Position numbers: made by a program. This document shows, in pieces, positions 29,401 through 35,400 of a DNA stretch of 64,000 nucleotides. Numbering within the stretch: the stretch's first letter is position 1; each line of letters opens with the position of its first letter. This stretch comes from Bryobacterales bacterium (lineage in GTDB: Bacteria; Acidobacteriota; Terriglobia; Bryobacterales; UBA6623): positions 448,017 through 512,016 of the forward strand of contig OY729428.2 of the NCBI GenBank assembly GCA_963422375.2, in the 5' to 3' direction.

Positions 29401-32400
29401 GGACTTGGCGTTCTCTCCCAAGCCGAGGTAGACCGTGGTGGAGGCAGTCTGGGCGGCGAGCGCCCCCGAGCACAGCGCAAGCAGGATTAAGGTGCGTGGC
29501 ATCGTGCGCAGATTATACTGACTGAACGCATCAAAGTCGTTTCCGACTCAGACGATTTCCGGCCGCACTGCAGCCATTGGCGCGGTTGGAAGCTACCGCA
29601 GGCGAATCCAGGGCCCGCAAGACGCTGATAGCGTCATTGATGTCCGCATCGCCGGAGTAGCCGCGGCGCTTGCACGCGTATCGCTTGCCTTGGCGATGGC
29701 TCGCGTCCACCTCGTCGCAGCGATGGCACCGCTGCGACGAATGCGCGGGATTGACTTGCTCACGCCTGCGACCGGCCCACCGTGACTTGTATGCAAGCTA
29801 CCGTAGCAGCAATCACTTGGGATTGAGGCTGGGAAGCTCTCAATCCGGCTGGATCGTGATAAGCAGGACGAATCGACCGTTACCACGCTTCCGGAGCCGA
29901 GGCGACTTGAAATACTCGATGGGGCCGAACGAGCTGGCAGGCTTGAAGCGGGAGCACCCCGGACACTCGCCTGCCTTGCAGCGACGGAAGAATGCATTGA
30001 ACGGCTTGTCGACGCGAGTGAGCGTGCCCAGCGCCAGCCGCTAGCAATACACACTTCCCAGCATTGTCGGCTCGGACTTGCGGCGTTCGGAATGCTGGTT
30101 GCACTGGTCGAAGTACGTCCCTCCGAGAATGCACTCCGCGTCGCATACCGGAGATCCGGGTACAAACTTCCCCTTCCCAAGCCAGAGCACCGGACGGCTG
30201 CGACTTAGCTCGCGAAATCGACAATGCCGGCGAGTTCCGGACAGGCCGACGCGGGCGGCCGACAGCAACAGATTAGGGCCCTAGAGCCGCGCTCGATCCG
30301 CGGGACACCGCCACCCACAGTGAGCGCAGGCTCCGTCGCCCCGTGCTTCAGGGCCCATTCCTATTGCGCGGGGTGGGGCGCCCGGGGCGCCCGCAGGGGC
30401 GTTGCTGGGAATTGGCGGGTCGGGCAGCCCAATCATTGCCGTCGGCAAGCAGGTCTACATCTGGTCCACGGTGGGCGGCAGGAAGGCCCGGGCCCTTCCG
30501 CTCAGAACTGGGGGCAGCGGAACGGTACCCGGCCTCCGGCTACAGGTCGTCCAGCGGCAACGCGGTCACGCCCTCGGCGAGAGGCCCACGCGATTCCCCC
30601 TGGTGGACCAAGTATCCCGGTGCGGCCAAGTCGCGGCACCGCCGGATCCACTCCCGGCGCGGGAGCCAACCTCCCACGGCAGCCGGGCATGCGGTCGGCC
30701 CTCGATCTCCCTGTGCGCGAGCGGAAGGAGTCGCAGCACCGCTACTCTCGCGGCCAGCGACTCGGTCACCTTCTCCGACAGCAGCAGATTCTGCGAGCCC
30801 GTCAGCACAAAGCGGCCGCGCCTAGACCGGTCCTCGTCGATGGCCAGCTTGAGATATGTCAGCAGCGAAGGAGCGTACTGAGCTTCGTCCAAGATCACGG
30901 GATCGGGATGACTCCCGAGAAACCCGAGCGGGTTGCTAACCGCAAAGTCCCGCTCGACCGGGTCGTCTAGGGACACGTAGCGGAAGCGGCCACCGAACAG
31001 GCGCTTGAGCGTGGTGGTCTTCCCGGCCTGGCGGGGCCCCGTCAGCATTACTGCCGGGAAGGCGTTCACGGCACGTTCCAGTACCGGCTCCAACGCCCGC
31101 GCAATGTATCGGTCACCCACGGCAGCGATGCGTCATCCAGTCAGCCTCTTCAGTATTGAACGCCGTACCCCCGCCATACGATGAGCCTCTACGCAACCCG
31201 GTCTGCCCCACGCGGGAACCGGCTGCGATCGAAACAGGTCCGAATGGCCAGTCGCGGCACGAGCCGAGGCTGAGCCGCAATGCATCTTGCGGTCCGTGCG
31301 TGAGCCACAAACCAGCTTGCGGATCGCGAAACCTCGAATCTGAGCCGCAATGCATCTTGCGGTCCGTGCGTGAGCCACAAACCAGCTTGCGGATCGCGAA
31401 ACCTCGAATCTGAGCCGCAATGCATCTTGCGGTCCGTGCGTGAGCCACAAACCAGCTTGCGGATCGCGAAACCTCGAATCTGAGCCGCAATGTATACTGT
31501 CCGTATCTCTTCGTCGGTCGGGCCGAGGCAACGATGCCTCGACCGGTCGCTCCGAATGGGAATCGCGAATCACCGGGCCCCTACCGTCGCAGACGACCCA
31601 GCTCCCAGACGCCGTGTCAGCAGTTCACTACCACGAAGGCCGGTTCCCGCCTGACAAGCGCCTCGACTGGCCGGCGCTCGTTCCATTGCTGGGTCCGACG
31701 GCGGCAGCGGTGGCCCGTTACGACGGAATGCTGGGTGCCATGCCCAACCCGGATGTCCTCCTGGCACCGCTGACCGCACGTGAAGCCGTGCTGTCGTCAC
31801 GAATCGAAGGCACCCAAGCCAGCACGGCCGAGGTGCTGGAGTTCGCAGCCGGTCGTCCGGCCGACTCGCTGGCGAGAGCGAGCGAGTACCGCGAGGTTCT
31901 CAACTACCGCACCGCGATGTCCATCGCCATCGAGATGCTGGACAGGCTGCCGCTGTCGCTCCGGGTCGTCCGCGAGGCGCACAGGTCACTGCTCAAGGGC
32001 GTGCGCGGCGAAGGCAAGGCTCCTGGCGAGTTTCGGCGAACCCCCAACTGGATCGGCCCTCCGGGCTCCACAATGGAGACCGCCTCGTACGTGCCCATCA
32101 GCGCCGAACACCTCCCGGACGCCTTGGGCCGCTGGGAAGCCTACATGCATAGCGAGGCATCCGACTTGCTCGTGCAAGCGGCCAACACGCATGTGGAGTT
32201 CGAGGCACTGCACCCCTTCCTCGACGGCAACGGGCGCGTCGGTCGCATGCTAATCCCGCTTTTTTTCTGGCAGAGAGATCTCATCAGTCGTCCGACATTC
32301 CACATCAGCGCCTACTTCGAAGCGCATCGGTCCGAGTACTACGAGAGGCTGCTGGGGGTCTCTCGAGATGATGACTGGACAGGATGGTGCAGGTTCTTTC

Positions 32401-35400
32401 TAAAGGCAATTCGGAATCAAGCCGAAGAAAATACCAGAATATCTCGTGACATTCTTCGCCTGTATGACGAGATGAAGATTCGCTTAGTGGAAGTGACTCG
32501 CTCCAAGTATTCAATTATTTTACAGGATTTCATCTTCCGAAATCCTGTATTTCGAAACGCAGGCCTAGCCGAGCAGGCCGGAATTCCAGTGCCGACGGCA
32601 AAACGGATTCTGGCCGAGCTTCGGAACCAAGGAATCTTGACGGAAGTCCTAGCCGCACGGGGAAGGCAGTCGTCGATTTGCGCATTCCTCCCACTCCTTG
32701 AAATCATTCGGGACAGGCACGACCGAAGCTAGATCCGACCAGCAAGCCGGTCAAGCCGGAAGCGGTGCCCCTGCAACCCCGCCCCATCCTTGGACTCCCA
32801 GCGGCCGCGTCCCTCGACCTGTTCGGGGTGCTCGGGGGACAGTGTCGGCGCACTCATCGCAAGCGCCGGTGCTCCGGGAGATCGTGGACGGCGATTGCAT
32901 TCCGGCCTCGCCGCTCCCTAGGCTGCTCTCGGCCACGCTCTCCCATCGTCGGCGACGGCGCGGCGATTCCCGCCTAGCGTTGGAGGGCTGAGCCGACGGC
33001 TGAGGGCTATACCAAGGAAACATCGGGCCTTCCTACCGGGCCCGTTCCGAATGGGGATTATATATCTGAGTGCCGACAACGCCATATCCGACTAGAACTG
33101 CTGTGAGCAGGGAGGTGGGTGTCGAGCTGGGGTCATTCGAGTGCGGCCGCGGCGGGCACAGAGGGGTGGGGGGGGTGGGATCGTATCTGAATCGAGCCTG
33201 CCAGCGGATTGGACGAGGAAGGGACTAGAGAGGCCGCCTCGCATGCCCCGGTTGCCCCGGTTGCCCCGGTGAAACCCGGTTGGCGGTGGCAGGGCACCCC
33301 TTGCAAGCCGCTTGCAGGCCCTGCGAGGGCCGAAGACAGCGGCTCCCCGGCGCTCAACGGCCTGCATGGACGGTCCGGACCGGACTGGGGTCGCGCCGGG
33401 GCATTCCGGATCCGGTGCGCCCCTCGTACCGAGCGTGAAGCGCACCGAGCGTGAAGAGCGCGCCCGCAGCGGGCTGCCGCGCTCAGCGCGGCGGGCGCCG
33501 CTCAGGCCGCGACCGCGGCCTTGCCGGTCAGCTGCCGGCAGGTCAGCGTCCGGCCGACCAAGCCCCGCGCCATGCGCCGCATCCGTTCCGCCGTGTCGCA
33601 GTCGCGGTCGTTGTACCGTCCCGCGAACTCCGTGAGGTAGCGGCCGAGATGACGGACGCTCATCCGGTGATAGGTTCCGTACAGGCCGCGCTTGAACAGG
33701 GACCGAAACGATTCAATGCCGTTCGTATGCGCTGCCCCGCGCACGTACTCGCCGCCGGAGTGCCTGACGGCTTCGTGCGCGAACTCCGCCATGCCGGCGT
33801 AGGCCGCCGCCTCGTCGGAGCGGAGCTGCGCCCCCGGCGCGACGCGGGCGCGCACGAAGCCCTGCAGGTCGCCCTTGGCGGTGCCCGGCAGCGGCCGCGC
33901 GGCCACTGCGTTCGTGGCGCGGTCCCGCGCCCCCGCCACGGGCGTCTTGCCAACGGGCCCGCGCCCGGCACGGGCCTTCTTCCTCTCGTGCTTGTTGCGC
34001 TCCTTGCCGCCGACGTAGGTCTCGTCCACCTCCACCGGGCCGGCGAACGGGCCCCGATCCCGCTCCCGGCACGCGCGGATGCGGTGCGCCAGGTGCCAGG
34101 CCGACTTCCGGCTGATGCCTAGGTCGCGGTGCAGCTTCATGCTCGAGACGCCCTTGATGCCGGTGGTCAGCAGGAACAGGGCGACGGCCCGGGTGCGGTA
34201 GCCGAGCTCGGTGTCGGCCATCACGCTGCCGCTGCGCACCGAAAAGCGCTTGCCGCAGCCGCGGCAACGGTACGGCATCGAAGGGTGGGCCGCGTCGGAC
34301 TGCACGCTGGAGCCGCGGCAGCGGGGGCACGCGGGACCGTCCGGCCAGCGCACGGAGGCGAACCACTTTTCCGCGGATTCGTCATCGGGGAACATGGCGA
34401 TCACTTCGATCAATGTGATGCCTTTACGGAACCACTTTCCGGGACCTTGTTTCTTCATTTACGGTATCACCTACTGGAACTATTCTACCAAGAAACACTA
34501 CAGAATTTCAACGGAAAATCGGAAGAAATATGAAATCTTATAATGGCTTGATAATTTGCCGACTTGATTCCCTCGACACTCAGATATATAATTCCCTTCC
34601 GAATCGTTCGGCTGTCTACGTCGAATCGAAGCGGCGCAGGGAACACTTTCCCGCGATCCAGGCGTCTCGACTCGCGGCGCGCGGCGCGGCGAGCGGCCGC
34701 CCTGCCCTGGGAAGCGGTCCAGTCGAACGCGTCCCGTTCGACGGCCCGCTGGATGGCCGTACAATCGATCGGGCGGAGGGCACCGCCCGCCGCACAGCCC
34801 CACAATGCAGCTTCCGGACCCCCGCAACGCCGACATTCTCGTTCACGTCAGGGGCAGGCTCGTGCCGCGCGCCGAAGCGAGGGTGTCGGTATTCGACAGC
34901 GCGGTCCAAGGTGGGGACGCCGTCTGGGAGGGCCTCAGGGTCTACCGCCGGCGCCTCATGGACCTAGACCTTCACCTGAACCGCCTATTCGCATCCGCGC
35001 ACGCCATGGCATTCGCCGGCATCCCGTCCAGACGCGAGGTGCGCGACGCCCTCTTCGAGACCCTTCGCGCCAACGGCATGACCGATGGCACCCATGTCCG
35101 GCTGACGCTCACGAGGGGGGAGAAGGTCACCTCGGGCATGAGCCCTCACTGGAACCAGTCGGGATGCACGCTGATCGTGCTGGCCGAGTGGAAGCCCCTG
35201 GTATACGACCAAGACGGCATCCGACTGATCACGTCCTCGGTGCGGCGGAACAGCCCGCAATGCCTAGACTCCAAAATCCACCACAACAACCTGATCAACA
35301 ACATCCTGGCCAAGATCGAGGCGAACCTAGCCGGCGTGGACGACGCGGTCATGCTGGACTTGCATGGCTACGTGTCCGAGACGAACGCCACGAACATGTT

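What a model noticed while it worked through the whole genome (the two positions that open the first line are those of the whole stretch)
31270..32732. Perfect tandem-repeat arrays sit 210-220 nt upstream of two unrelated Fic toxin genes, in the layout of type III toxin-a [...]
Two of the three largest intergenic tandem repeats of the genome (CRISPR aside) lie directly upstream of Fic (AMPylase) genes. One is 3.2 perfect copies of a 70-nt unit at C2 479286-479508, 217 nt before g01954 (Fic_N+Fic, 340 aa, C2 479726-480748). The other is 4.7 copies of a 50-nt unit at C2 1854120-1854353, about 207 nt before g03090 (Fic, 496 aa, C2 1854562-1856052). Each unit holds two short inverted repeats. Some orthologues of g01954 in related genomes carry arrays of the same 70-nt period (or 140/280) but of different sequence. 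I propose that the arrays are a functional partner of the Fic gene. They could be a repeat-RNA antitoxin as in ToxIN-type (type III) systems, which so far ar [...]
Evidence so far: TRF on the whole genome at score >=200 finds only three non-coding, non-CRISPR arrays: C1 189950-190403, C2 479286-479508 and C2 1854120-1854343. Sequences and flanking genes are in call 122. Only 7 of 4960 genes carry the Fic domain proper. TRF on the 1.5 kb upstream of 28 orthologues of g01954 found in 77 family genomes shows arrays in 9 of 28 (own included), with periods 70 (6), 140, 270 and 280, 2.1-8.2 copies, and within-array identity 70-100%. They share a half-site GTGAGAnnCAA / TTGnnTCTCAC whose two arms change together between genomes.
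(Added by a program. Inside this text positions count along the whole contig: contig position 448,017 is position 1 of the stretch shown here. "Call 12" and the like, gene names such as g00115 and contig names such as C1 are that model's own, and its searches are not shown. The text may have been shortened before it was handed on; [...] marks where a part breaks off. The agent that wrote the report below was given it as the finding of a first reader that could run no searches.)

Follow-up and report, generated by a model that had tools for sequence, protein, structure and literature searches.

The report
Phased operator array of Fic gene
The 70-base repeats are copies of a fixed-spacing DNA element found in front of related Fic enzyme genes in many bacteria, and they are likely docking sites through which the Fic protein's own DNA-binding tail would switch its gene down, not an RNA antitoxin.

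Summary
The array is real (31270-31492, 70 nt x 3.2, identical copies). The type III RNA-antitoxin reading is not supported. The gene most likely starts at 31614, so the gap is 121 nt, not 217. It encodes a class II SoFic/CccR-type Fic with a C-terminal winged helix. Each 70-nt unit is four 11-bp half-sites (RTGAnnnnCAA and its complement) spaced 6-2-6-12. This geometry lies upstream of relatives in several phyla: 50 of 210 loci, and 22 of 25 fresh ones. It occurs once in this genome and is nearly absent where the gene abuts an upstream gene (1 of 42 v 54 of 120). A -10-like box follows the last half-site, there is no terminator, and hairpin partners pair no better than non-partners. Half-site bases track two residues of the predicted recognition helix, though independent contrasts are too few. 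Best reading: an autoregulatory operator array, expanded by slippage; binding and repression are inferred from CccR and SoFic. The second Fic's closest relatives also carry arrays. This scan has reached the Fic-operator idea before on other DNA. No paper in my searches describes this geometry.

The parts
31270..31492 (.). Array of 13 half-sites (11 bp), order F-6-R-2-F-6-R-12, 3.2 identical 70-bp units; likely operator array
31317..31380 (.). One minimal element R-12-F-6-R-2-F (TTGCGGATCGC / CTGAGCCGCAA / TTGCGGTCCGT / GTGAGCCACAA), the 64-bp form found alone in 14 relatives
31480..31490 (+). Last half-site (F), lying where the promoter spacer would be
31493..31498 (+). -10-like hexamer TATACT, 13 nt after the start of the last half-site; no -35 consensus; predicted promoter of the Fic gene
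   Evidence: same register in 5 of 17 Bryobacterales loci; background 0.69 per kb
31614..32732 (+). Class II Fic gene, 372 aa (Fic_N + Fic + SoFic-like winged helix); GTG start inferred from orthologues, no clear Shine-Dalgarno
31668..31739 (+). N-terminal helix, residues 19-42; predicted dimer interface
31794..31811 (+). Inhibitory-helix motif SSRIEG (residues 61-66), invariant in 15 of 15 aligned
32211..32246 (+). Fic catalytic motif HPFLDGNGRVGR (residues 200-211)
32598..32627 (+). Predicted recognition helix, residues 329-338; K330 and R331 co-vary with half-site bases
30566..31120 (-). Divergent, short (184 aa) AAA_14 ATPase gene; a neighbour, not part of the element
   Evidence: no homologue upstream of the other 49 of 50 element loci

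Best explanation
The array is a slippage-expanded run of fixed-spacing DNA half-sites that likely serves as the operator of the Fic gene behind it: dimers of the Fic protein would bind inverted half-site pairs through their C-terminal winged helix and would repress the predicted promoter at the array's gene-proximal end. SHOWN: the half-site consensus and 6-2-6-12 spacing; their link to this Fic subfamily; single occurrence in the genome; position next to a -10-like box; the protein's class II Fic and winged-helix anatomy. INFERRED: (1) dimer formation through helix 19-42 (model, likeness to SoFic); (2) the bound unit is the R-to-F pair, the order of the CccR operator, alternately 12 and 2 bp apart (23 and 13 bp centre to centre, one helical turn apart), so that neighbouring dimers meet at the conserved CAA-N6-TTG junction and probably bind cooperatively; (3) helix residue 331 reads the TG of the half-site and residue 330 reads base 6; (4) the result is negative feedback that keeps a toxic AMPylase low; (5) the perfect copies come from recent slippage or unequal exchange, common in this genome, while selection keeps the register.
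For: Template-free: lag-70 autocorrelation upstream in 20 of 169 loci v 0 of 169 in-gene controls, with lags 30, 40 and 140. Held-out loci (136) give spacing peaks only at 13, 17, 23/24, 30, 40/41 and 53/54, none in controls. Element above the control maximum in 50 of 210 loci and 22 of 25 fresh loci; 12-6-2 is the best of 378 geometries on the fresh set (21 of 24; next 14; median 0). Direct-repeat spacings are multiples of 10 bp, with occasional 1-bp variants. All 14 four-site chains are RFRF, in both mirror forms (9 and 5); even-length chains 32 R..F v 1 F..R. Four-site element found only at this locus in 6.0 Mb. Only 1 of 42 element loci abuts an upstream gene, against 54 of 120 without it; 33 of those 54 upstream genes are restriction-modification genes. 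-10-like box at a fixed register. Residue 330 ranks 1 of 372 columns for base 6 and residue 331 ranks 1 of 372 for TG, and neither ranks for the other's base. R/K330: C at base 6 in 63 of 92 sites, H330: A in 29 of 40; fresh loci 37 of 48 and 11 of 12. R331: TG in 143 of 168 v 2 of 28 without. Fold closest to SoFic (3eqx, TM 0.74). Dimer model 0.60 v best control 0.00 (mark reached by 20 of 30 solved pairs and 1 of 23 single chains; runs agree 100%, pLDDT 87; may be memory of SoFic). CccR binds AGATAATCAT-N26-ATGATAATCT through its HTH and represses itself (PMC9755527); both arms read ATGAnnnnC, as here. Dimeric SoFic binds the first 100 bp upstream of its gene (10.64898/2026.07.09.737422).
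Against: No binding, repression or transcript was measured. Independent contrasts are too few: 5 and 4 pairs, none opposite, p 0.25; I picked residue 330 by eye before ranking. R331 does not always go with TG (L266, L269, L271: 0-1 of 4; fresh set 25 of 40). 11 of the 22 fresh positives are one alphaproteobacterial clade already seen. 66 of 120 element-negative loci have an intergenic gap yet no element by the first matrix. G.U exceeds A.C in F-6-R pairs on the sense strand (106 v 71; 25 v 9 loci, p 0.009 ignoring kinship). No -35 box, and only 5 of 17 loci show the -10 in exact register. CccR's spacer (26) matches none of the gaps here. A rigid dimer could not span both 13 and 23 bp. The winged-helix Pfam matches are below cut-off (E 0.002-0.006) and the wing is poorly modelled (pLDDT under 50 at 340-362).
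Confidence: 0.75

Rival explanations
1. Repeat-RNA antitoxin (type III-like): the array is transcribed with the Fic gene, processed into units, and the RNA binds and inhibits Fic.
For: Array upstream of a toxin-family gene. G.U excess in F-6-R pairs on the sense strand. RFRF cores fold slightly better on the sense strand (mean z -2.24 v -1.77; lower in 24 of 39). A class II Sofic can still be toxic despite its inhibitory helix (PMC12249575), so a partner is not ruled out in principle.
Against: No terminator. Array plus leader z -0.48, other strand -0.81; single unit -0.75/-0.46. No Rfam match near threshold. -10-like box downstream of the array. Partner match 7.33 of 11 v 7.4-7.9 for non-partners; WC+GU pairing 76% v 76-79%; variable positions 1.97 v 2.17. 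Chains end in half hairpins. Fic is not an RNase, so nothing cuts the units.
Confidence: 0.04
2. Neutral tandem duplication of an arbitrary stretch in a slippage-prone genome; no function.
For: 17 near-perfect non-triplet arrays in the genome, several inside transposase frames (read by eye). One sample suggests fewer copies (X3). 13 of 28 close orthologues lack the element.
Against: Explains the identical copies but not the conserved 6-2-6-12 geometry with different sequence in distant clades (about 41% protein identity), nor degenerate arrays that keep register (L018, L021, L022, L031), nor duplications that nearly always have period 70 or 140.
Confidence: 0.05
3. The sites are bound by a host regulator or nucleoid protein, or serve the divergent AAA_14 gene, not Fic.
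For: The CAA/TTG ends are nearly invariant across phyla. In this window the array lies 150 nt from the AAA_14 start.
Against: The element occurs once in the genome. No AAA_14 homologue upstream of the other 49 of 50 element loci. Bases track the Fic helix residues.
Confidence: 0.06
4. DNA antitoxin or allosteric scaffold: the array mainly stores several Fic dimers in an off (deAMPylating) state and frees or activates them when the DNA is lost or degraded. Compatible with operator binding.
For: Most of the 13 half-sites lie too far upstream to overlap the promoter. Arrays reach 33-35 half-sites (L016, L018). DNA binding switches CbFic2 to a deAMPylating dimer (PMC10628234). SoFic-type genes are listed as anti-phage systems (PADLOC E 8e-106).
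Against: Four half-sites suffice in 14 loci; none are found in R-M operons. In SoFic and EcSofic the dimer is the toxic or AMPylating form. A few dimers per chromosome is a small sink.
Confidence: 0.1

Closest known systems
CccR of Yersinia pseudotuberculosis and its auto-operator (PMC9755527; PDB 7XUX)
   Same: Class II Fic plus C-terminal HTH; dimer through the first helix; inverted half-sites in the same order (left arm ends TCAT, right arm starts ATGA); arms read ATGAnnnnC; sites near the promoter.
   Different: CccR has one pair 26 bp apart. Here the pairs are 12 and 2 bp apart, with 4 to 35 half-sites in a 70-bp period. Sequence relation is distant (E 2.8e-8). Secretion not examined.
SoFic of Shewanella oneidensis (10.64898/2026.07.09.737422; PDB 3EQX) and EcSofic (PMC12249575; 9vjc by the match)
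   Same: Closest solved relatives (E 1e-35 and 6e-29; TM 0.74); same domain order; dimeric SoFic binds its own upstream 100 bp.
   Different: The passages I read define no operator sequence, and repression was not tested there. Target (EF-Tu), anti-phage activity and an AS1-like protein antitoxin are untested here; about 27% identity.
Type III TA systems ToxIN/CptIN/TenpIN (PMC5086642)
   Same: Tandem non-coding repeats upstream of a toxin-family gene.
   Different: Toxin is not an endoribonuclease; no terminator; predicted promoter is downstream of the repeats; no RNA-type covariation.
CbFic2 of Coxiella burnetii (PMC10628234; PDB 8CIL)
   Same: Class II Fic with HTH; DNA binding changes its activity.
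   Different: Assayed with random DNA, no operator known; host-directed effector.

Membership tests
Type III TA | Toxin is an endoribonuclease | tested here: not met
   Fic_N + Fic, catalytic motif intact, SoFic fold; feature from PMC5086642
Type III TA | Rho-independent terminator between repeats and toxin gene | tested here: not met
   0 found in 31000-31800
Type III TA | One promoter upstream of the repeats | tested here: inconclusive
   No consensus promoter found; a -10-like box lies downstream of the array; no transcript data
Type III TA | Repeat folds as a pseudoknotted RNA | tested here: inconclusive
   No Rfam match, z about -0.5 to -0.8, no partner-specific pairing; pseudoknots not modelled
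Type III TA | RNA neutralises the toxin | not testable with these tools
   needs an experiment
Class II Fic of SoFic/CccR type | Inhibitory helix N-terminal of the Fic motif | tested here: met
   SSRIEG 61-66; CccR has SARIEG
Class II Fic of SoFic/CccR type | Intact Fic catalytic motif | tested here: met
   HPFLDGNGRVGR 200-211
Class II Fic of SoFic/CccR type | C-terminal winged-helix domain | tested here: met
   Full-length PADLOC SoFic match E 8e-106; alignment to 3eqx through residue 350; Pfam matches below cut-off
Class II Fic of SoFic/CccR type | Dimer through the N-terminal helix | tested here: inconclusive
   Model supports it (0.60 v 0.00, interface 19-42) but may recall SoFic
Class II Fic of SoFic/CccR type | AMPylation activity | not testable with these tools
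   needs an assay
CccR-type auto-operator | Inverted half-sites upstream of the own gene, in R-to-F order | tested here: met
CccR-type auto-operator | Single pair with a 26-bp spacer | tested here: not met
   Gaps are 12 and 2 (also 42 between non-adjacent sites)
CccR-type auto-operator | Sites adjoin the promoter boxes | tested here: inconclusive
   -10-like box 2 nt after the last half-site; exact register in 5 of 17 loci; no -35
CccR-type auto-operator | Bound and repressed by the cognate Fic | not testable with these tools
   Indirect only: residue-base covariation

The most novel reading that the evidence does not exclude
The array is a DNA antitoxin: Fic dimers polymerise along a 10-bp-phased track, wrap it into a nucleoprotein filament that holds the enzyme off, and are released or switched on when phage attack degrades or displaces that DNA. 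Copy number would tune the threshold, and two helix residues would reprogram the site.
Probability: 0.1. Interest if true: 0.75.

Novelty: new variant of a known kind. Interest (0 to 1): 0.42.

Why it matters
SoFic-type Fic proteins are common predicted anti-phage toxins. In the papers I read an operator is mapped for one relative only (CccR). This finding gives a predicted operator consensus, a strict four-site geometry kept across phyla, and a candidate two-residue recognition code. All can be tested in cultured non-pathogens that carry the element (Paracoccus saliphilus DSM 18447 plasmid, Rhodobacter xanthinilyticus, Novosphingobium ES2-1). It also warns that repeat arrays before toxin genes can be operators and be mistaken for type III antitoxins. 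It does not establish a new class of system.

Tried and rejected
No RNA holder listed for window 30500-33000; the raw-read run X8 laid no reads; X5, X6 and X7 were uninformative on copy number. Rfam at E<=10 on both Fic loci: six chance-level rows, none near threshold. Sigma-70 and terminator scan empty. ORFs across the array (31113-31490 -, 31133-31573 -, 31156-31413 +, the 31440 GTG extension) rejected: period 70 is not a multiple of 3 and orthologues start at the 31614 column. CRISPR rejected: no spacers. Integron attC considered from memory and rejected: the element is upstream of the gene and is not a single hairpin. 'Arrays are a clade trait' (first tree) was dropped: members of the supposedly arrayless clade (L020, L033) carry the four-site form. 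The first weight matrix missed the TCTG-type variants in cultured Alphaproteobacteria, so a matrix-free score was used. A binary test of residue 330 ranked it only third. Order-level search added no close orthologue outside the family. Searches of two further phyla and one class gave 4 new loci in 635 genomes. No AS1-like gene could be judged downstream; only unremarkable short ORFs. The second array's unit was not found in 76 other family genomes. Rows dropped before counts: duplicates; loci with too little upstream DNA or partial matches (L098, L099, L182, L223, L224, L255, L290, L292); L082 (no C-terminus) and L027 (distant two-site hit) in the helix and operon tables; L036 (long branch) in the last tree; L273 (duplicate of L272).
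Full report
OBSERVATION. TRF finds 3.2 identical copies of a 70-nt unit at 31270-31492, with sub-periods 30 and 40. 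Short-read unitig depths match 3 and 2 copies of the two k-mer classes in X1, X2 and X4, and are lower in X3 (one study, possibly the source), so the array is unlikely to be an assembly artefact; copy-number variation is a weak hint only. The genome's family includes records titled Bryobacterales (L050 is the locus of G061). 21 of 27 close orthologues have ATG in the column of GTG 31614, so the gap is 121 nt. Identical copies are not special here: 17 near-perfect non-triplet arrays exist in the genome, some inside transposase frames (read by eye).

THE PROTEIN. 372 aa; Fic_N, Fic, and weak SoFic-like_C/HTH matches; PADLOC SoFic E 8e-106; nearest solved relative SoFic, E 1e-35, TM 0.74. SSRIEG and HPFLDGNGRVGR are intact. 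The AlphaFold model (mean pLDDT 75) has helices 318-322 and 329-338, the latter aligned to the SoFic helix before the wing; calling it the recognition helix rests on general knowledge of winged helices. A two-copy model pairs through helix 19-42, score 0.60 against best control 0.00 (mark reached by 20 of 30 solved pairs and 1 of 23 single chains; runs agree 100%; pLDDT 87). This shows likeness to SoFic, not binding.

ANATOMY OF THE ELEMENT. I gathered relatives from the family, GTDB and metagenome scans (best 80 of about 595 each), plasmids (9 of 1025 records), phylum and class samples and viral contigs. Without any template, upstream DNA shows lag 70 in 20 of 169 loci against 0 in-gene, plus lags 30, 40 and 140. 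The unit resolves into 11-bp half-sites F = RTGAnnnnCAA and R = its complement, spaced F-6-R-2-F-6-R-12. In 136 loci not used for the matrix the only spacing peaks are 13, 17, 23/24, 30, 40/41 and 53/54. 45 of 175 loci hold chains of two or more sites, up to 35 sites. A matrix-free score finds 50 of 210 and 22 of 25 fresh loci, on which 12-6-2 beats 377 other geometries (21 of 24, next 14); 11 of those fresh loci are one clade. Record titles include Bryobacterales, Longimicrobiales, Gemmatimonadetes, Latescibacterota, Fimbriimonadaceae, Alphaproteobacteria and, at the threshold, Riemerella. The four-site element occurs only here in the 6.0-Mb genome.

DNA OR RNA. All 14 four-site chains are R-F-R-F, in both mirror forms, and even-length chains run R..F 32 times against F..R once. 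An array of F-6-R hairpins would give the reverse. Hairpin partners match at 7.33 of 11 positions, non-partners at 7.4-7.9, and at the variable positions 1.97 against 2.17: the arms change together because all sites of a locus follow one consensus. Direct spacings are multiples of 10 bp. Folding z-scores are -0.5 to -0.8; no terminator; no Rfam family. Against my reading, G.U exceeds A.C in F-6-R pairs on the sense strand (106 v 71; 25 v 9 loci), though WC+GU pairing (76%) is no higher than for other pairings (76-79%, my arithmetic). The type III features quoted in PMC5086642 (passages) are endoribonuclease toxin, single upstream promoter, intervening terminator and pseudoknot; two fail and two are inconclusive.

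LINK TO THE PROMOTER. TATACT begins 13 nt after the start of the last F; the same register holds in L013, L019, L032 and L035 (5 of 17 listed; L016 and L020 are 1-2 nt off), against 0.69 such hexamers per kb. No -35 is evident. Only 1 of 42 element loci abuts an upstream co-directional frame, against 54 of 120 without the element; 33 of those 54 are restriction-modification genes, 1 is PglZ, 3 other, 17 unassigned. So the element goes with having an own promoter. 66 negatives with a gap remain unexplained; some carry variants that the first matrix missed.

LINK TO THE PROTEIN. Among 49 element loci, residue 330 ranks first of 372 columns for base 6, and residue 331 first for the TG at 2-3; each ranks 160th or lower for the other's base. 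R/K330 goes with C (63 of 92 sites; fresh 37 of 48, A 0), H330 with A (29 of 40; fresh 11 of 12). R331 goes with TG (143 of 168 v 2 of 28; fresh 25 of 40 v 2 of 44), with exceptions L266, L269 and L271. The window's own protein has K330 and C at base 6 in all four distinct sites, while most of its genus relatives with long arrays have H330 and A; L010 (R330, mostly A) and L019 (S330, mostly C) do not follow. Independent contrasts never go the wrong way but number only 4-5 (p 0.25). This is suggestive, not shown.

MECHANISM. Most likely the Fic dimer binds R-to-F pairs, the order of the CccR operator (PMC9755527, passages: 10-bp arms, 26-bp spacer, helices 70 A apart, autorepression). R-12-F is 23 bp, about 78 A, centre to centre, is the best-matched pair (7.9 of 11) and is the form found alone in four loci. 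R-2-F is one turn shorter and is often weaker in the AT-rich clade. Which pairs one dimer spans (13, 23 or the in-phase 53) is open. Tight repression makes sense because EcSofic is toxic despite its inhibitory helix (PMC12249575, abstract and passages). CbFic2 switches activity on DNA (PMC10628234, passages), which keeps the DNA-antitoxin case alive.

SECOND LOCUS (outside the window). The 496-aa Fic is PDC-S24-like. Its five closest orthologues all have 60/61-nt arrays with a 30-nt sub-period ending 15-36 nt before the aligned start, and a distant one has 49 = 29+20. The own 50 = 30+20 unit has another sequence, is found in none of 76 other family genomes, and lies about 40 nt from a divergent gene that reads like a metal P-type ATPase (by eye). 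An analogous operator array is plausible but unresolved.

NOVELTY. Searches for Fic with operator, inverted repeat, tandem repeat, wHTH, mloA and SoFic terms (listings only, apart from the five papers named) returned no description of a multi-site or 70-bp operator for this subfamily; subscription journals are mostly missing from the library. Earlier AI notes of this scan reached the Fic-operator reading on other DNA with other spacings; I did not test them. Verdict: a new variant of the CccR/SoFic auto-operator, not a type III system. Interest 0.42.

Noticed in passing
   Followed up: partly
own genome C2 3646927-3647238 (-), L003 upstream: A further Fic gene has TATTAAGC inverted repeats just upstream; a likely operator of different sequence.
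   Followed up: no
L199-L203 upstream; L218: PDC-S24-like Fic genes carry 60/61-nt (up to 12.6 copies) and 49-nt arrays of TAAnCG boxes: probably a second operator-array family.
   Followed up: partly
window 30566-31120 (-): AAA_14 / PDC-S01-like gene ends at 184 aa; similarity stops near residue 150 of a 422-position model, so it looks truncated.
   Followed up: partly
window 33502-34458 (-) and about 33050-33500: IS1595-family transposase; the flanking stretch resembles the 228-nt duplication at C1 189950 and carries a 16-nt repeat seen at other copies of this IS.
   Followed up: no
window 35783-41910 (+): PD-(D/E)XK nuclease plus UvrD helicase-nuclease pair (AddB/AddA-like by domain order; label recalled).
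   Followed up: no
own genome, e.g. C1 184926, C1 1273239, C1 1324993, C1 325775: Perfect tandem duplications (13-341 nt) inside reading frames suggest frequent slippage in this lineage.
   Followed up: partly
L031 (G058) upstream: A higher-order 270-nt repeat, over 5 copies and at least 1.4 kb, built on the 70-bp register.
   Followed up: no
L226-L229, L276-L286: Cultured and prophage Alphaproteobacteria keep the geometry; in L227-L229 and L276-L286 the half-sites read mostly TCTG..CAA and helix residue 331 is not Arg. L226 has Lys331 and other half-sites. Tractable models.
   Followed up: partly
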